Numbered from the stretch's first letter, positions 33,840 through 50,837 are shown. The stretch is DNA of 64,000 bases from Magnetococcales bacterium (GCA_015228935.1 JADGCO010000005.1:13128-77127), one strand, 5' to 3'. Numbers and translations are program-made. Notes: generated by a model not told the origin, from the letters alone.

Positions 33840-33996
33840 TCATCCAGTCTTTCAAATATGTTTCAGGAAGTTCCAGATACCGATATCACAAACATCCGTT
33901 TGAATATCCATACAAATTTCACTGAAATTCAAGGTTATGCGTCGTGACCGTGGCGGGGATTTCGTAGTTTATACCAGACTGTATTCAAAATAAAAG

Positions 33997-34152
33997 GTGA
34001 ATATTCATCCCCCCATTAAAAAACGTTTGAAAAACCGGGATGAAAGTCCAGGAGGAAGCGGCTCTGCCCTTCCTCCTGGCTGGGTTTGGAGTGGATCCCC
34101 AACCCATCTTTAACATGCTTTGGCCATTTTTGGCAGGTTTTGGCGGGGTTGC
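33997..34152 (-). mobile_element. MITE-like element copy (156 bp, inverted orientation)
   Basis: The plus strand begins GTGAATATTCATCCCCCC, which is the right TIR in reverse orientation, and ends GGTTGC. The hairpin is CCAGGAGGAAG-(10 nt)-CTTCCTCCTGG at 34048..34079. Confidence 0.7.
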
Positions 34153-35015: not shown

Positions 35016-35047
35016 CCAGGAGGAGACGACCAACCGTCTCCTCCTGG
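35016..35047. repeat. solitary 13-bp-stem hairpin related to the MITE core
   Basis: CCAGGAGGAGACG-accaac-CGTCTCCTCCTGG, located ~70 nt downstream of the patatin-like gene stop. Confidence 0.8.
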
Positions 35048-35116
35048 TTTCCTGTTCAAAAACTTCGTACATTGCAACGAAATCTTTCAGAGCTGCAGAG
35101 TGAAAACATCGACCTT

Positions 35117-37949: not shown

Positions 37950-39443
37950 ATGGACGGCAACCCGACATTGCCATTCGGAAAACACAAGGCAGACTGGATT
38001 TTTCTGGTTTTTCTGCTTTTGACGGTCTGTTACCAGACGCTTGCCTTCAATTTCGTACATCACGTCTATCCCCGTTTTGGATATCCTGTCGAAGATATTT
38101 TTGTTGGTCTTTCCCGAAATCTGTATGAGCGTGGTGTTTTTGCCGATAATTTCCGCAGCATGTACGAACAATCCATTTTTTCTGAAAACGACTTGTCAAA
38201 CAAATCCGCACCTGACCCGGCATCTGATAAAAAAATTCAATATAACACCTGGCGCACACCCTCCTATCCAATCTATGTCAGTGGCATCTACACCCTGTTT
38301 GGTGACCAGGAAATCAATGCCATCATATTCAATAATGGAATTTTATTTTTGTCGGTTATCCTGACCTTTTTCATGGGACGTCTCATCCATCCGGTGGCAG
38401 GTTTGCTGGTGGCCATGCTGACAATGGCCGATCCGATCTATATTCAAACCTCGAACACTTTTTTGGCGGACGAGGCATTCCACTTTCACATCGTGTTGTT
38501 TCTCCTGGCAGCCATCTGGATGTTCAAACATGGCGTAACCACGGGACGGGTTGCCTTGTGTGCTGTTTTTCTCGTCCTGCAAGAATATGTGCGGCCCTCC
38601 GGCATGTATCTCTGGATCGTCTTTTGCCTCTCCCTGATTTTTCACCTCTGGAATCAAGTCCCCAGACTCCAGATAGCCAAACTGGTCCTGCTGTTTCTGG
38701 CCATTCATTTTGCAGGTATTGGCATCTGGACCCTGCGCAACGTCATGGTGGGGGGCAGTGCCGATTTTGTAGGCATGCAAGGCTCCCACCTGGTTCGCTT
38801 CCATATGCCCCTGGTGATTGCGGAGCGGGATGGCATCAGTGAAAGCCAGGCCGGGGAAAAATTGTTCGCACCGCTCAATTCCCGGTTGGCACACATGAAA
38901 ACCACCCGCGAACGGGACGACTATCTGGGTCAGGTCGGACGCGAAATGATCCTGGAAAACTACCGCTTCTCTCTGCTGGTCATGATCAAAACAATGTTGC
39001 CGCGCCTCTTTTTTTCTCCACCGCCCGAACATCCGCCGGTTTTCACCGCCCTGGATCATTATCAGAAACTTCAGGATTATCTCCTCGCCCAGGAGGATGT
39101 CACCAGTCGCATGGAGCGCAACCGGAACGTCATCGCCTATCTTTTCCAGCATAAACACTGGGTTGTCCTGTATCAATTGTTCATGGCCAAGCTGGTCAAC
39201 CCCCTGCTGATCCTCTGTGCCTTGCTGGGATTTTGGCACATGATTCGCGGTACCGAACATAATTTTCGAACCATTGGCTGGTTTCTTTTTCTCTTCTGGG
39301 GGCAAATGACTCTCCTGCACCTGATCTATGCCCTGGCCCGCTACCGCATGCCCATCATGCCGGCGGTGTATCTTCTGGCCGTCTTTTTTGTGATCCAGAC
39401 AGCCCAAAAATGGCGTAAAAACAAAATGAGCCACCACCCCTGA
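37950..39443 (+). CDS. polytopic membrane protein, GT-C (ArnT/PMT_2)-like glycosyltransferase candidate
   Basis: About 10-12 hydrophobic segments. WRTPSYPIYVSGIY resembles the RPPLYP loop of PMT_2-type GT-C enzymes. The start is uncertain: the ORF opens at 37701 and 37950 (MDGNPTLPF) precedes the first transmembrane segment. Confidence 0.45.
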   Translation: MDGNPTLPFGKHKADWIFLVFLLLTVCYQTLAFNFVHHVYPRFGYPVEDIFVGLSRNLYERGVFADNFRSMYEQSIFSENDLSNKSAPDPASDKKIQYNTWRTPSYPIYVSGIYTLFGDQEINAIIFNNGILFLSVILTFFMGRLIHPVAGLLVAMLTMADPIYIQTSNTFLADEAFHFHIVLFLLAAIWMFKHGVTTGRVALCAVFLVLQEYVRPSGMYLWIVFCLSLIFHLWNQVPRLQIAKLVLLFLAIHFAGIGIWTLRNVMVGGSADFVGMQGSHLVRFHMPLVIAERDGISESQAGEKLFAPLNSRLAHMKTTRERDDYLGQVGREMILENYRFSLLVMIKTMLPRLFFSPPPEHPPVFTALDHYQKLQDYLLAQEDVTSRMERNRNVIAYLFQHKHWVVLYQLFMAKLVNPLLILCALLGFWHMIRGTEHNFRTIGWFLFLFWGQMTLLHLIYALARYRMPIMPAVYLLAVFFVIQTAQKWRKNKMSHHP

Positions 39444-39447
39444 CACT

Positions 39448-39614
39448 GAGAGGCTGTCGATTAACCCTCGGATAAATATAATTGGAAAGAAAAATTTTAT
39501 TGGGGCTTCGCCCCAAACCCCGCCAGGAGAAAGGGCACAGCCCTTCCTCCTGGACCTCCATCCCAGTTTTTCATTCGTTTTATTTGAAATTAACAAGTTA
39601 TCAGACAGCCTCTG
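39448..39614 (+). mobile_element. MITE-like element copy (~167 bp, long-hairpin subtype 2)
   Basis: TIRs are GAGAGGCTGTCGATTAAC and GTTATCAGACAGCCTCTG. It carries GGGGCTTCGCCCC and the hairpin at 39523..39553, which has one uncompensated G-to-A change. It lies between convergent genes. CTGAG is present at both ends. Confidence 0.8.
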
Positions 39615-39748: not shown

Positions 39749-41950
39749 TCAATTCCTGTGATCGCTGGCAACTTTTCTGGTCGGCGAATTTTCTTCCGGT
39801 GTGTTGGTCAGGATCAAGGTACCGGCTGCCGTGGCTTGGACCTGGCCGCTGGAATTCTGGCCAATCGATACCTGATAGGTGGCATGGGCTGCGAGACCAA
39901 AGATCAAGATCCGTTCCACTCCGGCGGGTGCCGGGGGCAAATTCAGGAGGGATTTTTCCCCGGCAGAGACAAAGGCCACGGCCAGATCGGCAATCTGCAC
40001 ACCCGGCATGGTGGCTGGATCGCCCCAGGCTGTCAGGGTTGGCAGAGGCTCTTTGGTGGCAAGACGTGGCAGCATCACGGCCAGAAAACCGTTTGGTACA
40101 GTTCCCTCGGGAACACGGGCTTCCACCCGCCAAGCTCCGGCATCAGCGGGAATGCGCCCGGCAGGGTGATGGTTTTGCCCGTCGGCACCACGAAAGGCCT
40201 CCAGGCCACCCACCACGCGCAAATCAGACGGTGATGGAAGCAGAAAATCCGTGCGCAACGTGGTCCGACCATTGCTGAACACCACATGCTGTTTTCCAAT
40301 CTCGGGTCGATTGATGCCGTGCAGCAACCAGACCGGTCGCAGCCCTGCCGGACCCATGGTCACGGCGTCATAAACCACCAGTACGGGTTGTGAAAATCCG
40401 GCAATGCGCCGAAGAAACAGAAAATGGCGCCGGAAATGGTGCAGGCTTCCGGCAGGATAGAGATTTTCGCCGCGACCGCGCACATAGGTATGGAGGGGAT
40501 AATCCTCGAATGCTTCAATGCCACCCTGGATGAACGCCGGATCCTGCAATTGTTGGACACTCTCCGGCGGTTTGGCGTCGTTTTGCTCGATCAGCAACGG
40601 ACTCCCGGATTTTTCCAAAACCAGAGTATTGTGGGCCACGGTGCGGGTGTAATAATTCCGCCAATGGTCGCTTTTGTAGGCGTCATAAACCCCGCTGTCC
40701 ACAGCCAAAGGTCCCTGGAGGGCCATTTCAAAGCTGTTGCCGTCCCGGTGGGCATGGTTGAAAAAACTCCAAGGGGTGGATTTGAACAGGACGGTCAGGG
40801 AGGATTCACCCTTGCCCAAGGCCCAGGTGTCCCGCATGACGGCGACCCCGGCCCGCTGGAAAAGACGGTTTTCCGGCAGGGTTTTCGGGTCGGTCGGTGC
40901 AACGTCCCGCCTTTTCCAGAGCAACTCCCAAATGCGCTCCTCTTCCCGCCCCCGATCCTTGAAACGGGCTTCCCACCAGGCAGCGATACCGTCATTCCAG
41001 ACATCCGCCACCTTGTAGAGAACCCGCAGCAAATGCGGCGAGGGTGTGGGGGAACGATTGTCGCCGCTCATGAAGACCGATCCGTCATCCTTGAGTCCAT
41101 AGAGGTGAAACAGAACGGCCTGTTGCAGCCATGGTTCGCGGGCAAACCAATCCTCTCCCAGGGCGGTGGCAGCCAGATCCAGAATCTGCGCCGTAACCAG
41201 ATGGTAGTAGCGGGAATATTCCCACCCCATGTGAAAACCGCCATCCATCTCTGCAATGAATCGGTAAAAAGGCAAAAAATGGTTTTCCAGATGGTCGAGA
41301 ATGAGGGGGAGGCGTTTTTCCATGGTCGGACTTTCGCCCTGTACGGCCAATGCTCCCATGAGAACCGTCAAATGGGCATGGTATTCGTGCCCCCCGGAAA
41401 CTCCCTTGAGTTCAAGTTGCTTTTTTTTCTCCAGCCACGTCGTGGCCTCTTCGATAAACTGGATCAACTGTTGTCTGGCGGTCGCATTCAGGCGGGGATG
41501 ACACCAATCGAACAGCATGGCGGCGGCTTCGAGCCGGTCGCGTACCCGCTGGTCATCCTTTTCCTCGCTCAGGGAGAGACGATTGGCCACGGCAAAGGCT
41601 GTCAGGGCTGCTTCCAGATGACCCTTGCCCGGTTTGATGGCATCGAGCAGGGCAAAAACCGGCATGGCCTTGTTGGCCTGGGCAGGATCCAGGTCCAGGA
41701 GCGTGACCCCATTCCACTTTTCCTGGGCATAACGCTGCAAGCGTTCATGGACATCCCGGGCATGTCCGGGTCTGGCCACCCGGGCCTGAAGGTCTGCCAG
41801 GCTTTCGGGTGTCAGGTAAAGCCGTGGATGGTGGGCAACCACCGTATGGGCCAGGGCTGGAACGGGAGCGACCACGACCCATGAAAAAGCCAGAAAAACA
41901 AGCACACACAACAGACGTCTCAGTTCAGAAACAAAGGCCTGCACCCTCAT
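39749..41950 (-). CDS. heparinase II/III-like (alginate-lyase-fold) periplasmic polysaccharide lyase family protein
   Basis: Signal peptide ends ...VVAPVPALA/HT. The N-terminal part reads as an alpha/alpha toroid-like region. The C-terminal part has HAHRDGNSFEMALQGPLAVDSGVYDAY...YYTRTVAHNTLVL, typical of Hepar_II_III. Confidence 0.7.
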   Translation of the reverse strand: MRVQAFVSELRRLLCVLVFLAFSWVVVAPVPALAHTVVAHHPRLYLTPESLADLQARVARPGHARDVHERLQRYAQEKWNGVTLLDLDPAQANKAMPVFALLDAIKPGKGHLEAALTAFAVANRLSLSEEKDDQRVRDRLEAAAMLFDWCHPRLNATARQQLIQFIEEATTWLEKKKQLELKGVSGGHEYHAHLTVLMGALAVQGESPTMEKRLPLILDHLENHFLPFYRFIAEMDGGFHMGWEYSRYYHLVTAQILDLAATALGEDWFAREPWLQQAVLFHLYGLKDDGSVFMSGDNRSPTPSPHLLRVLYKVADVWNDGIAAWWEARFKDRGREEERIWELLWKRRDVAPTDPKTLPENRLFQRAGVAVMRDTWALGKGESSLTVLFKSTPWSFFNHAHRDGNSFEMALQGPLAVDSGVYDAYKSDHWRNYYTRTVAHNTLVLEKSGSPLLIEQNDAKPPESVQQLQDPAFIQGGIEAFEDYPLHTYVRGRGENLYPAGSLHHFRRHFLFLRRIAGFSQPVLVVYDAVTMGPAGLRPVWLLHGINRPEIGKQHVVFSNGRTTLRTDFLLPSPSDLRVVGGLEAFRGADGQNHHPAGRIPADAGAWRVEARVPEGTVPNGFLAVMLPRLATKEPLPTLTAWGDPATMPGVQIADLAVAFVSAGEKSLLNLPPAPAGVERILIFGLAAHATYQVSIGQNSSGQVQATAAGTLILTNTPEENSPTRKVASDHRN

Positions 41951-42001
41951 GGTGGGTCACCTTTCAGGATTCCGGAAAATTTTGCTTGAAAAACCGGACA
42001 A

Positions 42002-44488
42002 TCAACCCGTAACCCGCAAGGCCTGCCGCAACTCGCCGGCTCGGCGCAGGTAGGGATGGCCCTTCTTCAGGGAAGCAGGGAGACGATGCAAAAAGGCCAA
42101 TCCCGCATCCATGTTGTCAAACTCACCCACCAGGATCATCAGGAGATTTTTCCCTGTGTTTTCATACATGAAGAGTTGATTTCGATCCAGAATATTCTTG
42201 TGATTGGCCAGGAGTTCCTCCAATTTTCCGGCACGGGCCGCTTGCAGATCAATGGCCATGAGATGGACAAGGTAGCGACCGCGGCCACTTTTGGACAGCA
42301 AAGCCTGCGTGGCCGCCTTGCGTTGCGCAATATAAGGGCTGTCCTGTCCACTCCTGGTCAGGTTCAACGATTCTGTAACTGGGGGAAGGATGACAGATGC
42401 CACCTGGGAGGGAAACCGTTGTGTCTCGTCGGTGTTTGCGGGTTTTGTGGAGGACTTTCCTGGGACTCCACCTGCCAAGGCAGGGTCTGGCATGCCGTTG
42501 GCTGACATCAGGTTTGTGGCGGGTCTGGTCTCCGGGACCGGATTTGTTGCCACAGAAAACCGGGCGATGGGTTTTTCATCGGTTACCGGCATCGTCTCTT
42601 GTGTCAATCTGCCGTTTGATGTCGGTCTTGTGTCGCGTTTCGGGTCGGTGTCTGGTGTCAATCTGCTGTTCGAGACCGGTTTTGTGTCGCGTTTCGGATG
42701 GGTGTCTGGAGCCAATTTTCCGTTCGGGATCGATTTTGCTTCATCGGCCACTTCCTTCTGCGCCTGCATGACTTCGGTCAGGACTTCATCGATGGGTGCC
42801 TGGAAATCTGTTGTGGGGAGTGTCCTATTGACATCGACCTTGTTTTCCGGTGCCTTGGGCAAGGGATTGGCCGTTTGGACAGAGGCTCCCGAATCCTGGC
42901 CCCTGGTCAATCGATCCGGAAGCGAAAAAGTCATCTTTCCCGGACCATCGGGATTGCCGGGAAGCAGGCTGACCACAACAATCCCGCCCAGAACAACCAA
43001 GCCGGCAAAAAGCGCCTTTTTGGACTGGAAAGGGGATGGTTTGCCGGCGGATCCGGAACGGTTGCCACGTTTTGGCCTGTCTGTTTCCATTTCGGGGACG
43101 GAAATGATGATGGGCAGGCCGAGAAAATGGGATATGTCGCTGGGTTGCTTGAAGGTTTGATCGATCTGGTTGTAGATGGCCATGACCGACAAGGCAAAGA
43201 AAAAGCCGAACACCAGACCGATGGCGATCAGTTTGGGGCGGTTGGGTGCAACCGGTGCGGGTTGCACCTTGGCCTTGCGCAACACCACCACATGCGAGTC
43301 GAATCCCTTGGATCCCCCTTGCAGATTGGACTCATCGCGGCGTTTGTAGAAGGTTTCGAATGAATAGGCCAACAAACCCGACTCCCGGTTGATCCGCTCC
43401 GAGGTCAACAAAAATCTTTTCAGGACAATATTGCGTTCATCCAGTTGGGCAATCTTGCTTTTGAGACCTTCGATCTGGGTTTGCACTGCGGCCAGGTCGG
43501 ACTCCCGCTTGGCCACAACTGATTCCACCTCGCCATAGAGCAGCTCTCGCGATTTGGCCACCTGTTTGGCAATGCCCACGGCCACCGGGCTGTCGGGCAG
43601 ATAGGTTTTATCAATCTCGACCTGCCGCAACAGCAGGGTTTGCAGGTTTGTTGACAGATTGCGCACGGTTTCTGTTTGTATGTAGGAAAACAATTGCGTT
43701 TTTTCACCGCCCAGGCCTGCCCGGATGGCCTGGATTTCGTTGGCAATGATGATGGCCTGGGAATCGAGGCCCTGAACAAGCTGGGAATAATCCTTGCGCA
43801 ACAGCAGGTTGTTCTGGATTTCCTGATCCGGGTTGGGAGCCTTCAGATCCCCCACCATGTGCATCAGATCGTCCTGTTTTCCCTTCCAATCTGACAGGTA
43901 GCTGTTCACCTGATCGGCCAGAAAGACCTCTTTGGCACCTGGATTCAGGATGCGATGGCGAAACTGCCGATACTCCTCCATCAATGCTTCCAGAATATTT
44001 TTGGCCTCTTTGGGATCATGCCAGCGCAGGGCCACTTCGATGACATTGGATGTGGGCAGGATGGCCGTTTCCAGTGACGCACCGACTGTCTTGGCCATGC
44101 CTTCCACGGGATCTCCCCTGCCGGCACCGGGTTCTCCGGATTGTTCTTTCAGGGCAATCCTTTTCTCGGCAAGCAGCCGTTGCACGGTATTGCGCACCAC
44201 ATCGTCAGAGACCAGCATTTGCACTTCGGAGTAGAGATCCTCTTTGGTCACGGGTTCGACGCGCAGCATGGTGTCTTCCAGGGTCTGGGCATCCCGCTCG
44301 GACCGTTTGCCTTTGATCAAAAAGGCCCCGTCTGCCTGCCAGACCGGCGGACTCAACAAGGCGATGGCCACAAAGCCGGAGAGTATCACCCCGGAGATCC
44401 AGAATATTGCCCGCCGAAAGGCAAAAAAGGTGAAGATCAAATCTTTCAGTAGGTATCCACCGGTACTGGCGTCCTGGCGACTCTGCAT
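42002..44488 (-). CDS. polysaccharide co-polymerase (Wzz/GumC-type) with extra TM, Pro/Thr-rich repeat linker and C-terminal SPOR-like domain
   Basis: TM1 is followed by a Wzz-like region and long coiled coils. TM2 (LIAIGLVFGFFFALSVMAIY) is followed by the LGLPIIISVPE tail. A third TM (LFAGLVVLGGIVVVSLL) comes next, then an 18-aa repeat linker. The C-terminus reads YLVHLMAI....LFMYENTGKNLLMILVGEFDNMDAGLAFLHRLPASLKKGHPYLRRAGELRQAL, a DamX-type SPOR pattern. Confidence 0.7.
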   Translation of the reverse strand: MQSRQDASTGGYLLKDLIFTFFAFRRAIFWISGVILSGFVAIALLSPPVWQADGAFLIKGKRSERDAQTLEDTMLRVEPVTKEDLYSEVQMLVSDDVVRNTVQRLLAEKRIALKEQSGEPGAGRGDPVEGMAKTVGASLETAILPTSNVIEVALRWHDPKEAKNILEALMEEYRQFRHRILNPGAKEVFLADQVNSYLSDWKGKQDDLMHMVGDLKAPNPDQEIQNNLLLRKDYSQLVQGLDSQAIIIANEIQAIRAGLGGEKTQLFSYIQTETVRNLSTNLQTLLLRQVEIDKTYLPDSPVAVGIAKQVAKSRELLYGEVESVVAKRESDLAAVQTQIEGLKSKIAQLDERNIVLKRFLLTSERINRESGLLAYSFETFYKRRDESNLQGGSKGFDSHVVVLRKAKVQPAPVAPNRPKLIAIGLVFGFFFALSVMAIYNQIDQTFKQPSDISHFLGLPIIISVPEMETDRPKRGNRSGSAGKPSPFQSKKALFAGLVVLGGIVVVSLLPGNPDGPGKMTFSLPDRLTRGQDSGASVQTANPLPKAPENKVDVNRTLPTTDFQAPIDEVLTEVMQAQKEVADEAKSIPNGKLAPDTHPKRDTKPVSNSRLTPDTDPKRDTRPTSNGRLTQETMPVTDEKPIARFSVATNPVPETRPATNLMSANGMPDPALAGGVPGKSSTKPANTDETQRFPSQVASVILPPVTESLNLTRSGQDSPYIAQRKAATQALLSKSGRGRYLVHLMAIDLQAARAGKLEELLANHKNILDRNQLFMYENTGKNLLMILVGEFDNMDAGLAFLHRLPASLKKGHPYLRRAGELRQALRVTG
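42601..42730. repeat. 54-bp (18-codon) tandem repeat inside the co-polymerase linker, ~2.4 units
   Basis: Units start at 42601 and 42655. They encode (A/T)PDT(H/D)PKRDT(K/R)P(V/T)SN(S/G)RL on the minus strand. Confidence 0.85.
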
Positions 44489-44524
44489 GTGTGTTCCTTG
44501 CTTGTTTAAACCACGTCAGGAAAA

Positions 44525-45625
44525 TCAAAGTCCAAGGCGATTTTTGGCCGGGACATTGTCCCAGGTCCATCCCATGCCCAGGTTCCACCCCCGGAACTGG
44601 AAGACGTCGGCCACCCGCCTGATGATATCGGAAGTTTCGGAAATGGGCATGTTGGGCACATAGACAATGTCATCCGGTTGCAGGAAAAAGTGCCCGGCTC
44701 CGGGTCCCAGGGTCAGGGTTTGTTCCAGGTTGACCCGTGTTCCCACCACCTTTTTCTGGTGTTTGCGGACCACAATAATGCTGTCCAGACGGGCATTGAC
44801 CAGACTTCCTCCCGCCAGGGCCATGGCCTCGGCCACCGTGGCCGGTTTGAGGATGGGGAATGCCCCGGGCCTGGCAACCTGTCCCAGGACATAGATGGGT
44901 GACCCGGCGTGCCGTTCGAGGAAGAGATCCACCTTCAGACTGGGGCTGATCTTGGCATACTGGGCATTCAGATGACTGCCCACCTCCTCAATGGTTTTAT
45001 CCCCCACAAGAACATCCCCGACCATGGGAAAGGTGGTAAAGCCATCCGGACGCACGGTCACAAGCCGGCTTAAGCCCCGGGAAGCGGTATGAAGGTCAAC
45101 CTTCAATTCCCGGATTTGACTCAGGTATTCTGGAACAAGAACATAGATTTCCGGTTTGCGGAATATTTTTGAATAGCGTTCGGTCAACTCTTTTTCCACC
45201 ACACGCACCGAACGCCCCGCCACCTGCACTTCGCCCAGATAGGGTAATGAAATATTGCCATCGGGCCGGATTTTCTGGGTTTCGTTCAATTCCGGATTGG
45301 TGACAAACTTGATGGTGACGGTGTCACCCAGATTGAGATGGAATTCCACCTCTTTCTGCCAGCTTTGGATGGAAAACAGCACGTCCAATTGATCCCCGGG
45401 GGCAATGCGATATTCAGAAAAAATCCGAAAATCTCCGTTTGAAAAGGAGAACGATGATTGTTCCAGGGTGACTTCTTCACCGGTTTTGATGGGAATCGGA
45501 TCCTTGCCTGCACATCCCGGGAAAATCAGGATCAACCCCAGCAGCAGGGAGAGACCAGCCCCCATGCCCAGGCGCAGAGAGGCTGCCATCCATTTGCTGG
45601 AAAGAATGCCATCTTTGTGGCTCAT
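44525..45625 (-). CDS. Wza-like polysaccharide export lipoprotein (Poly_export + SLBB)
   Basis: Lipobox-like IFPGC. The Poly_export region has YRIAPGDQLDV. A repeated SLBB-like segment has V.V.G.V..PG. Confidence 0.75.
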   Translation of the reverse strand: MSHKDGILSSKWMAASLRLGMGAGLSLLLGLILIFPGCAGKDPIPIKTGEEVTLEQSSFSFSNGDFRIFSEYRIAPGDQLDVLFSIQSWQKEVEFHLNLGDTVTIKFVTNPELNETQKIRPDGNISLPYLGEVQVAGRSVRVVEKELTERYSKIFRKPEIYVLVPEYLSQIRELKVDLHTASRGLSRLVTVRPDGFTTFPMVGDVLVGDKTIEEVGSHLNAQYAKISPSLKVDLFLERHAGSPIYVLGQVARPGAFPILKPATVAEAMALAGGSLVNARLDSIIVVRKHQKKVVGTRVNLEQTLTLGPGAGHFFLQPDDIVYVPNMPISETSDIIRRVADVFQFRGWNLGMGWTWDNVPAKNRLGL

Positions 45626-45637
45626 GAAATCTGCCTC

Positions 45638-46381
45638 CTACAACCACCGGAATACAAAACGCGGAATATGAAACACCCGCCGATTGAGGACCACACCCAA
45701 CACGTTGCCATGAATGCGCCGGAGCAGATCGAGGGATTCATGCACCACCACCCGCTTGGTGGATTCACAGCGGATCACCAGGATGACGCCCTGAAAATCG
45801 GCGGTGGCCAGGGTTGCCCCGGAACTGGTCATCAGGGAGGAGGAGTCCAGAATCACGTAATCGCAGGTGTCCCGCAGTCTGGTGATGAGTTCCTTGAAAC
45901 CGGTCTGGGAAAACAAATCGCCTCTGTGGTTGACATCCCCGAATGGCAGCACTTTCAGACCCGGCACATGGGTTTCACACACGGCAGTTTCCAGAGACGC
46001 CGTGCCTGTCAATACGCCCACCAGTCCGGGTGTCTCGGGAATCTGAAAAACACGGGCCAATGCCGGGCTTTTGTCATTGCCATCCACGAGTACCACCCGG
46101 GTGTTGGCCTGGGTGACCAGACCATAAGCCAGGGCCACAGCCGTTGTCGTCTTGCCTTCCTTGGGCAGTGCCGACGATACGATCAAGGTCCGGAGATCCT
46201 TCCCCTCCGAGGCTGAGAGCAGATTGCCGCGAATGCGGGACATTTCGTGGTTCAATTTGGGCACGATCTGCCAGATCATATCCGTCGGATCCTTGTTCAC
46301 GTTGGTTTCTCTCCTGCCGGTGTTTCCTGCCCCGTGAGCATGCGGTTTTCTCTCCAACCCAATATCCAGGCCGTTAAGCAA
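45638..46381 (-). CDS. CpsD/CapB-type bacterial tyrosine kinase (stand-alone BY-kinase ATPase)
   Basis: Walker A is SALPKEGKTTTA, Walker A' is VLVDGN and Walker B is YVILDSS. The start is uncertain: TTG at 46381, GTG at 46300 or ATG at 46279. No obvious C-terminal Tyr cluster was seen. Confidence 0.7.
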   Translation of the reverse strand: MLNGLDIGLERKPHAHGAGNTGRRETNVNKDPTDMIWQIVPKLNHEMSRIRGNLLSASEGKDLRTLIVSSALPKEGKTTTAVALAYGLVTQANTRVVLVDGNDKSPALARVFQIPETPGLVGVLTGTASLETAVCETHVPGLKVLPFGDVNHRGDLFSQTGFKELITRLRDTCDYVILDSSSLMTSSGATLATADFQGVILVIRCESTKRVVVHESLDLLRRIHGNVLGVVLNRRVFHIPRFVFRWL

Positions 46382-46418
46382 ATTTCATTCCGATCTGGAG
46401 AATGATTAAAAAAACCGT

Positions 46419-46461
46419 GTAACTGTTTCAGGCTTTTCTTGAAAGGCTGCTGGATAGTTAC
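46419..46461 (-). mobile_element. 43-bp internally deleted MITE derivative (both TIRs joined)
   Basis: The sequence is GTAACTGTTtCAGGCTTTTCTTGAAAGGCTGCTGGATAGTTAC. This is the left TIR fused to the last ~34 bp of the 158-bp element. Confidence 0.75.
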
Positions 46462-46599
46462 GATACCGTTTCGATTTGAATCGTTTTTCAGGTCATTATT
46501 CCATGCAGAAGTTGCCGCTGCCATCCCATGTAACCGAGATACGGCACGAAAATTGCTTTTCATCTTCCTCCGTTCCTCCGTCCAAAGGCATTCTGCACC

Positions 46600-48969
46600 A
46601 TGAAAATGTTCCCACCCCGCTTGATTGTGCTGTTGCTGGTCACCCTGTTCGTGCTGGATGCCCGTCTCTCGCCGGCGCAGCCTGGCACGACCGGGCAACC
46701 CGACAGGCAGGGAGCGCTTTCGCCGACCCTGGAGCAATTTTTGCGCGGTGAAACCGAGCGGGGAGGCACAGTCCTGCGTTTTGACCATGACAGCGACGCA
46801 TTGACTCCGGCAGCCCGGGAACGCCTGGATCAGATTGCGCGTGCCCTGACGGCCAATCCCAAAATCAACATCCATATCGAGGGACATGCCTCGGCCCCTG
46901 GCAGCGATGCCTACAACATGGACCTCTCCCGGCGTCGTGCCGAAGCGGTGGTTCGCTATCTCCAGGAAAACCACCCTCTTCCGGCCTTGCGTTTTTCCAT
47001 GGTGGCCCGGGGAAAACAGGAACCCGCCAATCCGCAGAATACCCCGGAAGCCCAGGCAGAGAATCGCCGGGTCCGGCTGGCCATGCAGATACCCGATCTG
47101 GTTCTGGGTGTGGGCGGCATGGCACCACGTCCCCTGATTTTGACGCCCGATCATCGTTTCGTCATCGGTACCAGGCAGGGGGTTGTGCGTCTCTGGGATC
47201 TGAATGCCGGTTGCACGTACACGGAGTTGCCCAATCCGGGCACCATCGTCAATGCCATGGCCATATCTCCCAACGGTCGCGTTCTGCTGACCGGTGACGA
47301 TGATGCTGTCTTGCGTCTGTGGGATTTGGAAACCGGTGTGGTTCTGCACGATTTTACCGGCCATGCCGGTCCGGTGACCGCCATCACCTTTGCCCACAAA
47401 CTCGGTCTGGAAATGCTCTCCGGTGGGGGGGATGGTTCCGTCAAATTGTGGAATCTGGAGTCAGGGCTGCATCTGCGGAATTATGCGGGACATCAGGGAA
47501 CCGTCACTGCCCTGGCAACCATTCCCGGTGGGCGGCGTTTCCTTTCATCCGGCATGGATGGCAAGGTGGTCTTCTGGGATTTGTCCACCGGTGATGTACT
47601 CCTTGAATTCAAGGGTCATGAGGGGCCTGTTTTTTCCCTGGCCGTATCTCCAGACGGACATTTGGGAGCATCGGGTGGGGCCGACGGGACCATCCGTTTA
47701 TGGAAACTCGACCTGAATCCGAATCTCGCCCAACCTGAACCCCGTATTTTCAGGGCACATGACGGAGCCGTGACCGGCATCGCATTTCTCAAGGGGGGGC
47801 ACCAACTCGTTTCAGTGGGTCATGATGGTACCACCCGGGTCTGGGATGTGGCCACCAATCGCCTGTTACACAAATTTTCTTCTTCTCACCCTGTTCAGTC
47901 CGTGGCCGTGGATGTCACCGGTTCCCTTTACCTGTCCGGTGAGGAAAATGGGGCTGTCCGCATGGCAAGCCTGGAGACTGGATCTGCGGTCAGATCCTTC
48001 ACTTTTGCCGATCCCGGTCCTCCGATTCCCATGGGAAAGGTCTCGGGAGAATCCTGGACCCCGCCCGGCTCGACCACCCCATTCATCTGGGTGGGCGGTG
48101 GCTGTTATCAGCAGGGGTGCTCGCCGGTCATCGGCCAGTGCAGCTTTGACAACCAGCCCGCGCATGAGGTGTGCGTCAAAGGCTTCTGGCTTGCCCGCCA
48201 TGAGGTCACCCAGGCCGAATGGATCCGGACCCTGGACTTCAATCCTTCGAATCATCAGATGGGTGGTGATTATCCGGTGGAGCGGATCTCCTGGATGGCT
48301 GCCCGGCATTATCTTTGCCGTCTGAATGGGGCCGGTCCGGTGCGCTACCGTCTGCCCACCGAAGCCGAGTGGGAATATGCCTGCCGGGGAGGCGGCAAGA
48401 TGGAAGGGGTGCAGAGCAACTACCAGTCTTATCCTGCCTCGACAAGCGATGCTTCCGCCGCCCAGGCCCGGACACCGGAGAGCAGACCCTATGTCACGGA
48501 CGATGCAACGCCCGCAGAGGAGCCTGCTCCGGAAGATTTGACCAAAAAAGAGGTCACCCGGGAGCCTTATCCCCCGGTCACCCAGGGGCGTGCCAATTCA
48601 TTGGGATTGCTCAACATGAACGGCAACGTGTGGGAATGGGTCGCCGACTTTTATGACCGTGATGGTTACACCCGGCTGAATCGCGACAATCCCGTCCATG
48701 CCGGAGATATCGACTACCAGATGTTGAAAAGTGCCTACTCGCGTGTCGAACGTGGTGGTTCCTGGGACGTGGGTGCCCGCCCGGTCGGTTGCCTCTACCG
48801 GGATCATGACTACCCGGGATTCAGGAGCTTTTATCTGGGCATGCGTCTTCTGCTCGTGCCCGACCCGGATACCGGCACAAACACAAACACCCCGACAACG
48901 GCAACGTCGCCACCCATGACCGATACGGGATCGTCTCCCGCTGCAAATGCCGGGAAAGACAAAAACTGA
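46600..48969 (+). CDS. secreted OmpA-like / WD40 beta-propeller / FGE-sulfatase (SUMF1-like) fusion protein
   Basis: Signal peptide is MKMFPPRLIVLLLVTLFVLDARLSPA. The OmpA_C-like region has NIHIEGHASAPGSDAYNMDLSRRRAEAVVRYL. About 7 WD40 units follow (GH.G.V.A..F...L.SGG.DG..+LW). The C-terminus has RLPTEAEWEYACRGG ... NVWEWVADFY ... RGGSW, typical of the FGE-sulfatase fold. Confidence 0.8.
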   Translation: MKMFPPRLIVLLLVTLFVLDARLSPAQPGTTGQPDRQGALSPTLEQFLRGETERGGTVLRFDHDSDALTPAARERLDQIARALTANPKINIHIEGHASAPGSDAYNMDLSRRRAEAVVRYLQENHPLPALRFSMVARGKQEPANPQNTPEAQAENRRVRLAMQIPDLVLGVGGMAPRPLILTPDHRFVIGTRQGVVRLWDLNAGCTYTELPNPGTIVNAMAISPNGRVLLTGDDDAVLRLWDLETGVVLHDFTGHAGPVTAITFAHKLGLEMLSGGGDGSVKLWNLESGLHLRNYAGHQGTVTALATIPGGRRFLSSGMDGKVVFWDLSTGDVLLEFKGHEGPVFSLAVSPDGHLGASGGADGTIRLWKLDLNPNLAQPEPRIFRAHDGAVTGIAFLKGGHQLVSVGHDGTTRVWDVATNRLLHKFSSSHPVQSVAVDVTGSLYLSGEENGAVRMASLETGSAVRSFTFADPGPPIPMGKVSGESWTPPGSTTPFIWVGGGCYQQGCSPVIGQCSFDNQPAHEVCVKGFWLARHEVTQAEWIRTLDFNPSNHQMGGDYPVERISWMAARHYLCRLNGAGPVRYRLPTEAEWEYACRGGGKMEGVQSNYQSYPASTSDASAAQARTPESRPYVTDDATPAEEPAPEDLTKKEVTREPYPPVTQGRANSLGLLNMNGNVWEWVADFYDRDGYTRLNRDNPVHAGDIDYQMLKSAYSRVERGGSWDVGARPVGCLYRDHDYPGFRSFYLGMRLLLVPDPDTGTNTNTPTTATSPPMTDTGSSPAANAGKDKN

Positions 48970-49013: not shown

Positions 49014-50837
49014 TCACAGTGTGCCGGATGAATCCGGATGTTTCATGGAGAGGCTTCGTTGCTGCGGGCACTCCGAAAATACGGATTGTGTACACTGGCG
49101 GCAAATGTCCGGATTCAGGAAGCGCGTGACGATGCCATGGATGGCCTCGGTAATGGAACCAAAAATGTGGTCCTTGCCAATCACGGCCAGGCATCCTGAG
49201 CGTTGGATGGTTTCACACACCTGATCATGGACATCGAACAGGAACAGCCCCCCCCCGCGACCCCGACGGCGCAGGGCCTCCTGGATCAACATTTCGGCAC
49301 CGGTGACATCGACAAAATTGATGGCCGACCCTACCAGGAGTAGATTGACGGCCCGGGGAGCCTTGCTGTCCAGACAATTCAAGACATCCTCGACATGATT
49401 GACGGCACCGAAAAAAAGGGAACCATCCACGCGAATGATGCGAAGTTGAGAGCATTCCGGAAGATGATCGGCAGCGACCAGATGGTTGTGGGTGTCCGGG
49501 TCTGGCACAAGGCGGGTAATGACCGGATTGGCACGGCCTTTGAGGTAATAGGCCAGGGAGGAGATGACGCCCAGATAGATGGCAAAATCGAGTTTGATCA
49601 AAAGGGTTGCGAGAAAGGTGCCCACCATGACGAGCGATTCGGCACGACTGGTTTTCATGATCAGATGGATTGCCTTGAAATCAATCAGGTTGAAAGCCAC
49701 CAGCAGGATGACCCCGGCCATGGCCGGAATGGGCAGGTAGGCCACCCATGGGGCAACGATCAAGAGAATCAGGATCAGAAAAATACTCGAAAAGATAGCT
49801 GCCATGGGCGTTTTGGCCCCGGCCCGAAAGTTGATGCCGGAACGGGTAAATGAGCCGGAAGAGGCATAAGCGGAAAAAAAACTGCCCACAATATTGGCAA
49901 GACCCTGGCCGATGAATTCCTGATTGTTATTGATGCGTTGTTTGCTGTGCATGGCCACGGACCGCGAGATGGAGACGGCCTGAATCAGACAGATCATGGC
50001 CGTGGCAAAAGCACCGTTGGCCAACTGCTGCCACATGTCCAGGTCCCAACTGGGTGTGGAAAGAGGGGGCAACGTGGCGGTGATCGCTCCCACCAGGGGA
50101 ATTGATTCCTGGTGGGGATCCAGCATGAAGGAAACCACACCGCCACCCACCAACGCGACCAGCATGCCGGGCCAACGGGGGAAAAAAAATTGCATCAGGA
50201 GAGCGATACCCAGCGCCGCCAAGCCAACCCAGACGATGGGCAACTGAATCTGGTCGAGATGACGTACCAATCCCAAAACAGCATGGACAAAACTGTTGCC
50301 ATGTGACAAGGGAATTCCCAGGAAGGCTCCTGCTTGACTGATGGCCACCAGAAAAGCGGCCCCGGCGGTAAAACCCACCACGACCGAGTTGGAAACAAAA
50401 TTGACCAGAGTGCCCACGTGTACCAGCCCCATGGCCAACTGCATGATCCCGGTCATGAAGCTCAAGGTCAGGCAATAGCTGATATAGTCACTTCCACCCG
50501 GGGTAACCAGTGGTGCCAGGGTTGTAAAGATGATAATGGAGATGGGGGTGGTGGGACCGGATACGAGGTGATGCGACGAGCCAAACAGGGCGGCCATAAT
50601 CACAGGGACCATGGCCGTGTAAAGCCCGTATTGTGGTGGAAGTCCTGCAATGGTGGCAAAGGCCATTCCCTGGGGCAGGACCACCACGGCACCTGTCAGG
50701 CCAGCAAGAAAATCTGCCCTCAGGCCATGCCAGCGCAGGGCAAACAGCCAATGCCGAAAGGGAAAAAATTCCGCCCAGGCCATCGGACAGAGCAATCCCT
50801 GGTTTCCGGCAGGTGTCCGGCGTGAGGAATCCAACAT
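49014..50837 (-). CDS. SulP family anion (sulfate/bicarbonate) permease with C-terminal STAS domain
   Basis: Contains DFLAGLTGAVVVLPQGMAFATIAGLPPQYGLYTA, a SulP signature region, about 11-12 transmembrane segments and a C-terminal STAS (RVDGSLFFGAVNHV...VDVTGAEML). An alternative start is at 50783. Confidence 0.85.
   Translation of the reverse strand: MLDSSRRTPAGNQGLLCPMAWAEFFPFRHWLFALRWHGLRADFLAGLTGAVVVLPQGMAFATIAGLPPQYGLYTAMVPVIMAALFGSSHHLVSGPTTPISIIIFTTLAPLVTPGGSDYISYCLTLSFMTGIMQLAMGLVHVGTLVNFVSNSVVVGFTAGAAFLVAISQAGAFLGIPLSHGNSFVHAVLGLVRHLDQIQLPIVWVGLAALGIALLMQFFFPRWPGMLVALVGGGVVSFMLDPHQESIPLVGAITATLPPLSTPSWDLDMWQQLANGAFATAMICLIQAVSISRSVAMHSKQRINNNQEFIGQGLANIVGSFFSAYASSGSFTRSGINFRAGAKTPMAAIFSSIFLILILLIVAPWVAYLPIPAMAGVILLVAFNLIDFKAIHLIMKTSRAESLVMVGTFLATLLIKLDFAIYLGVISSLAYYLKGRANPVITRLVPDPDTHNHLVAADHLPECSQLRIIRVDGSLFFGAVNHVEDVLNCLDSKAPRAVNLLLVGSAINFVDVTGAEMLIQEALRRRGRGGGLFLFDVHDQVCETIQRSGCLAVIGKDHIFGSITEAIHGIVTRFLNPDICRQCTQSVFSECPQQRSLSMKHPDSSGTL

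What the first reader, a model, noticed from the sequence alone, without database searches (positions are those of the whole stretch)
39749..48969. Polysaccharide export locus with atypical composition and no glycosyltransferase, flippase or polymerase in sight
Minus-strand order is: stand-alone BY-kinase, Wza-like lipoprotein, Wzz-type co-polymerase (split from its kinase and carrying extra domains), then a heparinase II/III-like lyase. This operon converges on a GT-C-like membrane protein (37950-39443) and diverges from an OmpA-WD40-FGE protein.

The usual Wzx, Wzy, initiating transferase and GT genes are absent from the roughly 12 kb. Three features together suggest a peptidoglycan-anchored secretion and remodelling machine for an unknown polymer:
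- a peptidoglycan-binding SPOR-like end on the co-polymerase
- an OmpA-like peptidoglycan-binding domain on the divergent protein
- a periplasmic lyase-fold enzyme

This is my best candidate for an uncharacterised protein-level system in the window.
Basis: inference. Interest (0 to 1): 0.6.

Follow-up and report, generated by a model that had tools for sequence, protein, structure and literature searches.

The report
Detached polysaccharide export module with wall anchors
This is the export and chain-length half of an ordinary Wzx/Wzy-type exopolysaccharide pathway, separated from its sugar-assembly genes in this Magnetococcus genome; its modest interest lies in accessories that probably bind the cell wall and recur in related loci.

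Summary
A four-gene minus-strand operon encodes a short BY-kinase-type ATPase, a Wza/OPX protein, an 828-aa Wzz/PCP protein and a secreted heparinase-II-like (PL21) enzyme. An OmpA-WD40-FGE-fold gene diverges from it.

The window is from Magnetococcus sp. DMHC-1. The kinase-OPX-PCP trio is the conserved front end of a widespread, unnamed locus family, found here in about 40 loci across several phyla. In 30 of 36 relatives with downstream DNA, a priming transferase immediately follows the PCP gene, usually with Wzy, GT2/GT4 and Wzx.

No such genes occur in this 64 kb window. Two other Magnetococcales loci show the same detached arrangement.

- **Co-conserved:** the OmpA-WD40-FGE protein, which sits inside the operon in Marinobacter and Ferrimonas. 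Its FGE fold is PorK/GldK-like, not catalytic.
- **Not co-conserved:** the lyase and the convergent membrane protein.
- **Unproven:** the "SPOR-like" end. Nine related PCPs carry a genuine SPOR domain at the same position.
- **Unusual:** the kinase has lost all three tail tyrosines.

Verdict: a new variant of a known kind, of moderate interest.

The parts
45638..46300 (-). Stand-alone BY-kinase-family P-loop ATPase. It is 220 aa from the GTG used in the NCBI record; the longest ORF reaches 46381. Walker A, A' and B motifs are present. The C-terminal tail reads RVFHIPRFVFRWL and contains no tyrosine.
   Evidence: TIGR01007 105.6 bits against a cut-off of 108; family alignment; tail consensus R[KR]YYIPxxLYGKI; VpsO, CapB, BceF, Etk, Wzc.
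44525..45625 (-). Wza/OPX outer-membrane polysaccharide export protein, 366 aa. It has a signal peptide with a possible lipobox (LIFPG|C), two Poly_export-like stretches and one SLBB domain. The C-terminal 40 aa may form a Wza_C-type helix.
   Evidence: 2j58 E=1e-14; a weak third alignment reaches Wza residue 337. It is 50-57% identical to the OPX of L007, L012 and L013.
43025..44488 (-). PCP core, aa 1-488. TM1 spans aa 26-50, followed by a periplasmic coiled-coil domain and TM2 at aa 417-442. The conserved cytoplasmic segment that follows (IDQTFKQPSDI...GLPIIISVP) corresponds to the kinase-activating peptide of split PCP/kinase pairs.
   Evidence: (153 representatives at E<1e-30).
42950..43024 (-). 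Third transmembrane segment of the PCP (aa 489-513). It returns the chain to the periplasm.
   Evidence: hydropathy. The same feature occurs in most of the 34 extended family members.
42275..42949 (-). Pro/Thr-rich, low-complexity periplasmic linker of the PCP (aa 514-738). It includes a 54-bp (18-aa) tandem repeat of 2.6 copies at 42597-42738.
42011..42274 (-). C-terminal globular domain of the PCP (aa about 739-826), with predicted beta-alpha-beta-beta-alpha-beta order. It sits where related PCPs carry a SPOR domain. Its own SPOR identity is unproven.
   Evidence: -: AF2 single sequence, core pLDDT about 70.
- DamX SPOR 2lfv is the second-best PDB hit, E=0.27.
- 25% identity to the tail of Magnetococcales P0154, whose tail hits Pfam SPOR at E=0.021.
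- Negative results.
39749..41950 (-). Secreted heparinase II/III-family (PL21-like) enzyme, 733 aa. It has a signal peptide and lies 51 bp after the PCP stop, preceded by an AGGTGA ribosome-binding site.
   Evidence: -.
- the alignment to heparinase II 2fut keeps Tyr257, His406 and the Zn ligands His408, Asp425 and His451. His202 fits after a one-residue shift.
- the closest homologue, P0004 (30% identity), lies inside a Wzy-type biosynthetic cluster.
39500..39516 (-). Intrinsic-terminator-like hairpin (TTGGGGC-GAA-GCCCCAA followed by a T-run). It probably marks the end of the four-gene operon.
46301..46599 (.). AT-rich divergent intergenic region holding the promoters for the operon and for the OmpA-WD40-FGE gene. 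There is a sigma-70-like site at 46524-46495 (-). The 88-aa ORF annotated here in the NCBI record is probably not a gene.
46600..48969 (+). Periplasmic OmpA-like peptidoglycan-binding domain (aa 60-156), WD40 beta-propeller (aa about 185-470) and a PorK/GldK-type FGE fold (aa 494-750) that lacks the FGE cysteine pair.
   Evidence: -.
- PorK E=1.3e-12 to 1.9e-12, better than true FGEs at 5e-9.
- orthologues sit inside related EPS operons.
37950..39443 (+). Convergent polytopic membrane protein (497 aa by the NCBI start; 580 aa from 37701). Whether it belongs to the system is doubtful.
   Evidence: - No Pfam, NCBIfam or PDB hit.
- PMT_2 E=0.47 over the whole profile, and ArnT BLASTP E=0.26 in the same register.
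- AF2 model unusable, pLDDT 48.
- No homologue in the 39 clustered loci or in a metagenome scan.

Best explanation
[quoted passage not shown] In Magnetococcus sp. DMHC-1 this module has become separated from the priming transferase, Wzy, GT and Wzx genes that follow it in most relatives.

Proposed mechanism:
1. Lipid-linked repeat units are made, flipped and polymerised by genes elsewhere in the genome (inferred).
2. The PCP forms the inner-membrane and periplasmic cage. Its short cytoplasmic segment after TM2 docks the separate P-loop ATPase, as in CapA/CapB (inferred from homology).
3. The OPX protein provides the periplasmic and outer-membrane conduit (shown by homology).
4. The secreted PL21-like enzyme keeps the heparinase II catalytic and zinc residues. 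It trims, releases or epimerises the uronate polymer in the periplasm, as AlgL, PslG or BcsZ do for their polymers (inferred).
5. The PCP re-enters the periplasm through a third TM helix and carries a long flexible linker with a small alpha/beta domain. Together with the divergently encoded OmpA-propeller-PorK-like protein, this probably ties the translocon to peptidoglycan (inferred from domain content and from SPOR and OmpA domains in orthologous loci).

The kinase has lost the three conserved tail tyrosines. It probably acts as an ATPase or assembly factor rather than through autophosphorylation cycling.
For: - **Gene identities:**
- **Operon structure:** gaps of 12, 36 and 51 bp, a ribosome-binding site before the lyase gene, and a terminator only after it.
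- **Family synteny:** kinase>OPX>PCP occurs in that order in 28 loci, spanning Magnetococcales, Thermodesulfobacteriota, Desulfovibrio, Ferrimonas, Marinobacter, Verrucomicrobiota, Lentisphaerae and others.
- **Downstream genes in relatives:** Bac_transf immediately follows in 29 of 36 loci by phmmer, and in L002 by Pfam. Wzy_C follows in 24 of 36. GT2, GT4, Capsule_synth and Wzx were confirmed by Pfam.
- **Window content:** no such genes.
- **Detached arrangement recurs:** two other Magnetococcales loci, L008 and L054, also pair the trio with an FGE-fold protein and no nearby GT genes.
- **Precedent:** Wzx/Wzy clusters split by up to more than 1 Mb are documented in Myxococcus xanthus (PMC9603273).
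- **OmpA-WD40-FGE orthologues:** translationally coupled between GT2 and GT4 in Marinobacter L013 and 31-35% identical over the full length.
- **SPOR in the family:** found on nine related PCP tails and in complete clusters L055 and L056.
- **Lyase:** catalytic residues are conserved. Its closest homologue lies in a biosynthetic cluster. Other glycan-cleaving genes (GH113, an alginate-lyase-like gene) occur in related clusters.
- **Composition:** the operon's GC and GC3 match the rest of the genome, arguing against a recent foreign insertion.
Against: - The partner biosynthetic genes were not located. Only 64 kb plus 8 kb of a 164 kb contig could be inspected.
- The kinase tail has lost all three tyrosines, which could indicate decay.
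- The lyase and the membrane protein have no homologue in the 39 clustered loci, so their link to the polymer rests on operon structure alone.
- The SPOR identity of the C-terminal domain failed every significance test.
- All trio members score below NCBIfam's curated cut-offs.
- There are no expression or phenotype data.
Confidence: 0.6

Rival explanations
1. The trio is an evolutionary remnant. After the biosynthetic half of the locus was lost or rearranged, the remaining genes became non-functional or are decaying, and the neighbouring lyase and membrane genes simply filled the gap.
For: - PGT, Wzy, GT and Wzx genes that follow the trio in 30 of 36 relatives are missing.
- All three conserved tail tyrosines of the kinase are replaced: YY..Y becomes FH..F.
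- The lyase and the membrane protein are unique to this locus.
Against: - All four ORFs are intact and full length, with Walker A, A' and B motifs and the lyase catalytic residues preserved.
- The OPX protein is still 50-57% identical to orthologues.
- Codon composition is native.
- The same detached arrangement with an FGE-fold partner is kept in two other Magnetococcales genomes, which argues for selection.
Confidence: 0.15
2. The heparinase-like enzyme is a catabolic or unrelated periplasmic lyase that merely sits downstream. Likewise the convergent membrane protein is an accidental neighbour. Only the trio and the OmpA-WD40-FGE protein form a system.
For: - There is no co-conservation in the 39 clustered loci.
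- One homologue, P0006 from Opitutus, lies in a catabolic context with a sulfatase and pectate lyase.
- The membrane protein is on the opposite strand and has no detectable relatives.
Against: - The gap to the PCP stop is only 51 bp, on the same strand, with its own ribosome-binding site and no convincing terminator until after the lyase gene.
- The closest homologue, P0004, is embedded among GT4, Wzy_C and WecG genes.
- Glycan-cleaving genes recur in related clusters.
Confidence: 0.15
3. The module serves a polymer made by a different route. This could be an ABC-transporter- or synthase-dependent glycosaminoglycan-like chain (heparosan-type), with the PL21-like enzyme as its dedicated processing lyase or epimerase.
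For: - Two GT4 genes and an MsbA-like ABC exporter lie about 20 kb away, just beyond the window.
- The lyase is most similar to heparinase II, which acts on heparin and heparan sulfate.
- No Wzy or Wzx gene is nearby.
Against: - This PCP family is consistently linked to Bac_transf, Wzy_C and Wzx, not to KpsMT-type or synthase genes.
- The OPX protein has no GfcC-type domain of the KpsD class (classes defined in PMC9603273).
- A distance of 20 kb with unrelated signalling genes in between is weak linkage.
Confidence: 0.1

Closest known systems
E. coli group 1 capsule / colanic acid Wza-Wzc translocon (PDB 2j58, 3la6, 9r60 series)
   Same: An OPX protein with Poly_export and SLBB domains, a PCP with two TM helices flanking a periplasmic coiled-coil domain, and a BY-kinase-type P-loop domain with Walker A, A' and B motifs.
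   Different: - The kinase is a separate 220-aa protein encoded first in the operon, and its tail has no tyrosine cluster.
- No Wzb phosphatase gene was seen.
- The PCP has a third TM helix, a linker of about 225 aa and an extra periplasmic domain.
- The OPX protein has one SLBB domain and a duplicated Poly_export region.
- No adjacent biosynthetic genes.
Split PCP/BY-kinase pairs: S. aureus CapA/CapB (PDB 3bfv, 2ved, 4jmp) and V. cholerae VpsO (6u1q)
   Same: These are the best structural relatives of the kinase (E=3e-18 to 3e-19). As with CapA, the PCP ends its core with a short conserved cytoplasmic segment after TM2. The activating role of that CapA segment is from my own knowledge.
   Different: This is a Gram-negative system that includes an OPX protein. 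The family tail carries only three tyrosines (YY..Y), and the window protein carries none.
XrtA/PEP-CTERM-associated export trio (TIGR03027, TIGR03007, TIGR03018) and Methylobacillus-type EpsE/EpsF/EpsG
   Same: These are the best-scoring NCBIfam models for all three proteins.
   Different: Every score is far below the curated cut-offs: 109 against 180, 61 against 279, and 101 against 231 bits. No exosortase or PEP-CTERM component was seen in any of the Pfam-annotated related loci. The family is related but distinct and unnamed.
Pedobacter heparinus heparinase II (PL21, HepB; PDB 2fut/3e80), and by role AlgL, PslG and BcsZ
   Same: Homology over the whole length (E=8e-27), with Tyr257, His406 and the Zn ligands conserved. 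It is a secreted enzyme encoded in an exopolysaccharide operon, like the periplasmic polymer-cleaving enzymes of the alginate, Psl and cellulose systems (those roles are from my own knowledge).
   Different: It scores 130 bits against the 600-bit HepB equivalog cut-off, so it is not an orthologue. The substrate is unknown, and lyase and C5-epimerase activity cannot be told apart by sequence. The N-terminal family is the one Pfam also names DSE-like_N.
Type IX secretion PorE (TPR-WD40-CRD-OmpA_C) and the PorK/GldK ring lipoprotein
   Same: The divergent protein combines an OmpA_C-type peptidoglycan-binding domain and a WD40 propeller (PorE domain types; PMC12773672, PMC7192894) with an FGE fold. 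That fold's best solved relatives are PorK/GldK (E=1.3e-12 to 1.9e-12; PorK/N ring described in PMC4980022).
   Different: - All three domains lie in one polypeptide.
- There is no TPR or CRD domain and no lipobox.
- It is found in Proteobacteria-type exopolysaccharide loci, not in Bacteroidota T9SS.
- The resemblance is in domain content only. No ring formation or Wza contact has been tested.
SPOR-domain division proteins (DamX, FtsN, DedD)
   Same: Nine PCPs of the same family end in a Pfam SPOR domain. The window's C-terminal domain has the same beta-alpha-beta-beta-alpha-beta order, and DamX is its second-best PDB hit.
   Different: For the window protein, no test reached significance. Here the domain is attached to a polysaccharide co-polymerase rather than to a divisome protein.
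Myxococcus xanthus EPS/MASC/BPS Wzx/Wzy pathways with split clusters (PMC9603273)
   Same: This is a precedent for OPX, PCP and kinase genes lying far from part of their biosynthetic genes, with insertions from more than 18 kb to more than 1 Mb.
   Different: Those OPX proteins are Class 3 and are paired with a beta-barrel porin. No such porin was identified here, and the window OPX may retain a Wza_C-like end.

Membership tests
BY-kinase (bacterial tyrosine autokinase) | P-loop fold with Walker A, A' and B motifs | tested here: met
   The motifs are EGKTT, VVLVDGND and DYVILD in the family alignment. PDB hits are VpsO, CapB, BceF, Etk and Wzc. TIGR01007 scores 105.6 bits, just under the 108.05 cut-off.
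BY-kinase (bacterial tyrosine autokinase) | C-terminal tyrosine cluster that is autophosphorylated | tested here: not met
   The family tail is R[KR]YYIPxxLYGKI. The window tail is RVFHIPRFVFRWL, with no tyrosine.
OPX / Wza | Poly_export (PES) plus SLBB domains and a signal peptide | tested here: met
   Poly_export 105.4 bits (cut-off 28) and SLBB 41.6 bits (cut-off 27). There is one N-terminal hydrophobic segment. PDB 2j58 E=1e-14.
OPX / Wza | C-terminal outer-membrane-spanning Wza_C helix (Class 1 of PMC9603273) | tested here: inconclusive
   There is no Pfam Wza_C hit. A weak third alignment to 2j58 reaches Wza residue 337, at the start of the Wza_C segment.
PCP / Wzz superfamily | Two TM helices flanking a large periplasmic coiled-coil domain, with Wzz and GNVR motifs | tested here: met
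   TM helices at aa 26-50 and 417-442. NCBIfam pepcterm_ChnLen E=8e-17 and EpsF E=6e-12. 153 homologous representatives at E<1e-30. Pfam Wzz (15.8 bits) and GNVR (18.4 bits) fall below their gathering scores.
XrtA/PEP-CTERM exopolysaccharide system | Trio members reach the curated NCBIfam cut-offs | tested here: not met
   Scores are 109.3 against 180, 60.6 against 278.85, and 100.7 against 230.65 bits. The same holds for the Marinobacter orthologues.
Complete Wzx/Wzy-dependent locus | Priming transferase, Wzy polymerase, Wzx flippase and GT genes adjacent to the export genes | tested here: not met
   There is no homologue in the window or in L051. These genes are present in most related loci.
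SPOR domain (PF05036) | Sequence match to the SPOR profile or to a solved SPOR structure | tested here: inconclusive
   - No Pfam hit at E<=10, and phmmer against the PDB found nothing.
- A two-sequence profile gives DamX 2lfv at E=0.27, rank 2.
- An in-family SPOR HMM scored -0.6 bits, and 583 shuffled copies scored at least as well.
- hhalign probability 1.4%.
- The AF2 topology fits, but Foldseek finds only generic ferredoxin-like folds.
Polysaccharide lyase family 21 / heparinase II/III | Hepar_II_III_C domain plus the catalytic Tyr/His residues and Zn ligands | tested here: met
   Hepar_II_III_C 57.5 bits against a cut-off of 24. In the 2fut alignment, Tyr257, His406, His408, Asp425 and His451 align with identical residues, and His202 fits after a one-residue shift. 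The residue roles are from my own knowledge of Shaya et al. 2006.
HepB heparin/heparan-sulfate lyase (NF045571 equivalog) | Score at or above the curated equivalog cut-off | tested here: not met
   129.8 bits against 600.
Formylglycine-generating enzyme | FGE-sulfatase fold | tested here: met
   PF03781 scores 106 bits against a cut-off of 23.3.
Formylglycine-generating enzyme | Catalytic cysteine pair near the C-terminus | tested here: not met
   The sequence after RGGSW contains a single Cys. It aligns with the Cys-less PorK segment, and PorK/GldK are the best PDB hits, ahead of true FGEs. The canonical motif is from my own knowledge.
OmpA_C-like peptidoglycan-binding domain | Match to PF00691 above the gathering score | tested here: met
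   87.1 bits against 27.2, at aa 60-156. Peptidoglycan binding itself cannot be tested with these tools.
GT-C glycosyltransferase (PMT_2 / ArnT-like), for the membrane protein at 37950-39443 | Profile or fold match to GT-C | tested here: inconclusive
   PMT_2 is the only Pfam hit, E=0.47, covering profile positions 4-160 of 160. BLASTP to the window's ArnT gives E=0.26 in the matching register. The AF2 model has pLDDT 47.8 and cannot be used for fold search.

The most novel reading that the evidence does not exclude
A widespread, unnamed family of Wzx/Wzy-type exopolysaccharide loci uses a dedicated peptidoglycan-anchoring layer around its Wza-type channel. This layer consists of a periplasmic OmpA-propeller-PorK-like protein, which combines the domain types of the T9SS proteins PorE and PorK in one chain, and in some lineages a SPOR or SPOR-like domain tethered to the co-polymerase through a third TM helix.

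In some Magnetococcales this anchored export module has become a stand-alone unit, separated from any one biosynthetic cluster. It comes with lineage-specific periplasmic enzymes: a PL21-like lyase here and a YkuD L,D-transpeptidase in L054. It also has a kinase that no longer autophosphorylates.
Probability: 0.25. Interest if true: 0.55.

Novelty: new variant of a known kind. Interest (0 to 1): 0.35.

Why it matters
Wza-Wzc-type translocons are the textbook route for capsule and exopolysaccharide export. No link between them and the cell wall turned up in the limited literature searches run here.

This locus family repeatedly pairs the translocon with wall-binding modules: SPOR on the co-polymerase, and OmpA on a PorK-like propeller protein. 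That suggests a testable mechanism for fixing or positioning the export channel. Culturable Marinobacter and Ferrimonas strains carry the same accessory inside a complete operon and could be used to test it.

For genome annotation, the lesson is simpler. An export trio without neighbouring GT genes is most likely a detached part of a standard pathway, not a new machine.

Tried and rejected
**Searches that found little or nothing**
- Word-indexed protein search with the PCP found only two proteins. Repeating it with a 37-sequence alignment found three, so that search was wasted.
- The 37-sequence alignment was too divergent for the search for related loci. A 10-sequence subset worked.
- Metagenome scans with the membrane protein and with the C-terminal domain profile found no relatives.
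- A look-up meant to extend the left side of the window returned a different MAG contig instead.
- Literature searches for SPOR with co-polymerase, heparinase with Wzx/Wzy, FGE-sulfatase with Wza, and Magnetococcus exopolysaccharide gave nothing relevant.

**SPOR tests on the window's C-terminus, none significant**
- Pfam at E<=10 and phmmer against the PDB.
- hhalign against nine in-family SPOR tails.
- A locally built in-family SPOR HMM with 2000 shuffles.
- Foldseek of the single-sequence AF2 model.

**GT-C test on the membrane protein**
- There was no Pfam, NCBIfam or PDB hit. The AF2 single-sequence model was too poor for fold search.

**Readings rejected**
- Membership of the XrtA/PEP-CTERM system: scores are far below the cut-offs.
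- A true formylglycine-generating enzyme: there is no cysteine pair and the fold is PorK-like.
- Horizontal acquisition inferred from composition: GC and GC3 are typical of the window.
- The 88-aa ORF annotated upstream of the kinase as a real gene: it lies in an AT-rich divergent promoter region.


Full report
**Source and observation**

The window matches contig JAMOAV010000003.1 (164 kb) of the MAG Magnetococcus sp. DMHC-1, GCA_039908575.1.

On the minus strand:
- A short BY-kinase-family ATPase (45638-46300; longest ORF to 46381).
- A Wza/OPX protein (44525-45625).
- An 828-aa PCP (42002-44488).
- A heparinase II/III-family protein with a signal peptide (39749-41950).

On the plus strand:
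- A divergent OmpA-WD40-FGE-fold protein (46600-48969).
- A convergent polytopic membrane protein (37950-39443).

The gaps between the minus-strand genes are 12, 36 and 51 bp. The lyase gene has its own AGGTGA ribosome-binding site. The only convincing terminator hairpin lies after the lyase gene, at 39516-39500. I therefore read the four genes as one operon.

GC and GC3 of these genes are typical of the window. Base composition is not atypical.

**The individual proteins**

*Kinase.* Its best solved relatives are VpsO and CapB (E about 1e-18 to 1e-19), and it keeps the Walker A, A' and B motifs. In 17 orthologues the protein ends in a short conserved tail, R[KR]YYIPxxLYGKI. In the window protein all three tyrosines are replaced, giving RVFHIPRFVFRWL. 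One defining feature of a BY-kinase is therefore missing.

*OPX.* It has Poly_export and SLBB domains and matches Wza 2j58. Whether it keeps a Wza_C helix is unclear.

*PCP.* It has three hydrophobic segments, at aa 26-50, 417-442 and 489-513. After the usual two-TM core and a short conserved cytoplasmic stretch, the chain re-enters the periplasm. There it carries a Pro/Thr-rich linker of about 225 aa, which contains an 18-aa tandem repeat, and a final domain of about 90 aa.

*Lyase-like protein.* It aligns with heparinase II (2fut) along its whole length at E=8e-27. Tyr257, His406 and the zinc ligands His408, Asp425 and His451 are matched. It scores far below the HepB equivalog cut-off. It is a PL21-like enzyme of unknown substrate, and sequence alone cannot distinguish a lyase from a C5-epimerase.

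*Divergent protein.* It has a signal peptide, an OmpA_C-type domain, a WD40 propeller and an FGE-sulfatase fold. That fold lacks the FGE cysteine pair. Its best solved relatives are the T9SS ring lipoprotein PorK/GldK, at E=1.3e-12 to 1.9e-12, against 5e-9 for true FGEs.

**Is the C-terminus a SPOR domain?**

Direct tests on the window sequence all failed to reach significance:
- No Pfam hit and no PDB hit by phmmer.
- No profile-profile match to nine in-family SPOR tails.
- An in-family SPOR HMM scored no better than shuffled sequences.
- A single-sequence AF2 model (core pLDDT about 70) has the beta-alpha-beta-beta-alpha-beta order expected of SPOR. Foldseek returned only generic ferredoxin-like folds at E>0.009.

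Three observations point towards SPOR:
- A two-sequence profile, built with the tail of Magnetococcales protein P0154, places DamX SPOR (2lfv) second among 177,635 PDB sequences, in the expected register, at E=0.27.
- The P0154 tail itself hits Pfam SPOR at E=0.021.
- Nine other extended PCPs of the same family carry SPOR at exactly this position, six of them above the gathering score. One also has a precomputed Wzz+SPOR annotation.

I rate SPOR-like as probable, at roughly 0.7, but unproven.

**Comparative genomics**

An exhaustive HMMER search found 153 representatives of the PCP core at E<1e-30. Most are 450-480 aa. Thirty-four of the best 150 are at least 560 aa, and most of these have a third TM helix and a tail.

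A scan of one genome per species gave 37 good loci. Four more came from exact look-ups. Searching the first 39 loci with the window proteins showed the order kinase>OPX>PCP in 28 of them. They span Magnetococcales, Thermodesulfobacteriota, Desulfovibrio, Ferrimonas, Marinobacter, Verrucomicrobiota, Lentisphaerae and others.

Clustering the neighbouring ORFs and annotating them with Pfam gave this canonical locus:

kinase > OPX > PCP > Bac_transf priming transferase > Wzy_C > GT2 > [OmpA-WD40-FGE] > GT4 > ... > Wzx

- The priming transferase immediately follows the PCP in 29 of 36 loci with downstream DNA, and in L002 by Pfam.
- Wzy_C follows in 24 of 36.
- SPOR-bearing PCPs also sit in complete clusters, L055 and L056.
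- None of these biosynthetic families has a homologue in the 64 kb window or in 8 kb beyond its right end.
- The nearest GT4 genes lie about 20 kb away, next to an ABC exporter.

**What is and is not co-conserved**

The heparinase-like gene and the membrane protein have no homologue in any of the 39 clustered loci. The membrane protein also has none in a metagenome scan.

The closest lyase homologue (30% identity) lies among GT4, Wzy_C and WecG genes. Another lies in a catabolic context. Other glycan-cleaving genes, a GH113 and an alginate-lyase-like gene, occur in related clusters.

The OmpA-WD40-FGE protein, in contrast, is co-conserved:
- Full-length orthologues (31-35% identity, similar to the PCP and kinase) occur in Marinobacter nauticus and two Ferrimonas loci. 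There the gene overlaps the GT2 and GT4 genes on either side.
- A WD40-FGE version lies directly upstream of the OPX gene in another Magnetococcales MAG, and after Wzy_C in Methylomarinum.
- FGE+OmpA versions follow the priming transferase in L027 and L030.
- Counting the window, 10 of 43 loci carry an FGE-fold protein nearby. Three more carry OmpA-only proteins.

Two further Magnetococcales loci, L008 and L054, resemble the window. They pair the trio, which includes a SPOR-bearing PCP, with an FGE-fold protein and have no GT genes within about 10 kb. In L054 a YkuD L,D-transpeptidase gene follows the PCP.

**Interpretation**

The best-supported reading is a detached export and chain-length module of a Wzx/Wzy-dependent exopolysaccharide pathway. 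The polymer probably contains uronic acids. The partner biosynthetic genes lie elsewhere, as documented for the split Myxococcus clusters (PMC9603273).

- *Shown:* the homologies, the operon layout, the family synteny, and the co-conservation of the OmpA-propeller-PorK-like protein.
- *Inferred:* the lyase or epimerase acts on the exported polymer; the PCP tail domain and the OmpA protein tie the translocon to peptidoglycan; the tyrosine-less kinase acts only as an ATPase.

The OmpA_C and WD40 domains are PorE domain types (PMC12773672, PMC7192894). Combined with a PorK-like fold (PMC4980022), they suggest, by analogy only, a wall-anchored periplasmic scaffold.

The rivals are a decaying remnant, an accidental lyase neighbour, and service to a polymer made by a non-Wzy route. 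Each holds 0.1-0.15 of my belief.

**Novelty and score**

The core is ordinary. All trio members fall below the curated cut-offs of the XrtA/PEP-CTERM and EpsE/F/G models. The locus family is therefore a distinct, unnamed lineage.

My limited literature searches found no description of SPOR-tagged co-polymerases, or of FGE-fold/OmpA accessories in Wza systems. I rate this a new variant of a known kind, with interest 0.35.

The most novel reading not excluded is a dedicated peptidoglycan-anchoring layer for Wza-type export that has become a stand-alone module in Magnetococcales. I give it a probability of about 0.25.

Noticed in passing
window 45638-45680 (kinase C-terminus): The three tyrosines conserved in the tail of 17 orthologous kinases (R[KR]YYIPxxLYGKI) are all replaced here, giving RVFHIPRFVFRWL. 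The Walker motifs are intact.
   Followed up: partly
window 46297-46563 (-): The NCBI record annotates an 88-aa ORF that overlaps the kinase start. It lies in the AT-rich divergent intergenic region and covers a sigma-70-like site, so it is probably not a gene.
   Followed up: partly
window 42597-42738: A 54-bp tandem repeat (2.6 copies, 80% matches) encodes an 18-aa repeat (PDTxPKRDTxPxSNxRLT) in the PCP linker. It could be a site of length variation.
   Followed up: no
window 49014-50837 (-); L054 1-357: A SulP/STAS anion permease lies next to the OmpA-WD40-FGE gene. A Sulfate_transp-STAS gene also lies about 10 kb from the equivalent trio in Magnetococcales L054. No sulfotransferase or PAPS genes were seen, so any link to a sulfated polymer is pure speculation.
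   Followed up: no
L054 12445-13371; L008 7669-8901: In the two other detached Magnetococcales loci, a peptidoglycan-active enzyme lies near the SPOR-bearing PCP. In L054 a YkuD L,D-transpeptidase directly follows it. In L008 there is a weak NlpC/P60 match (E=6e-4) about 1.6 kb downstream.
   Followed up: no
P0058, P0037/P0098 and P0159: Other members of the PCP family carry different C-terminal additions after the third TM helix. These include an SH3-like domain, an NTF2-like Cds6_C domain (with SPOR in P0098), and in one case a fused Bac_transf priming transferase.
   Followed up: partly
window 4203-9843 and 20366-21706: A lipid A aminoarabinose (Arn) gene set is present: ArnT, ArnC-like GT2, the formyltransferase and decarboxylase halves of ArnA as separate genes, and an ArnD-like deacetylase. 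The ArnB-like DegT aminotransferase lies 10 kb away, beyond two tRNA genes (19539-19612 + and 20075-20148 -).
   Followed up: no
window 1130-2290; L052 978-3775: An identical ArnT protein occurs in a second MAG (GCA_015229045.1), next to SIR2_2 and DUF87 genes. The window has a NERD/DUF3782 ORF and a low-GC stretch (0.45) at 2-4 kb. This may be a defence island upstream of the Arn genes.
   Followed up: no
window 51741-53915 (+): A DctP (TRAP solute-binding) domain is fused to a Peripla_BP_6 domain in one 724-aa protein. Its gene overlaps the start of a hybrid histidine kinase with a dCache domain, which suggests a ligand-sensing pair.
   Followed up: no
window 24687-33839 and 53912-62054; L051 11221-11547: The operon is surrounded by very dense signalling genes. 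These include hybrid histidine kinases of 1494, 818, 1121 and about 1080-1240 aa, an RR-HD-GYP-type protein, and two receiver-PP2C (SpoIIE) proteins, one followed by a STAS protein as in a partner-switching module.
   Followed up: no
window 33840-35100: This roughly 1.3 kb stretch has low GC (0.46) and no ORF of 200 aa or more. Rfam found nothing there at gathering thresholds.
   Followed up: partly
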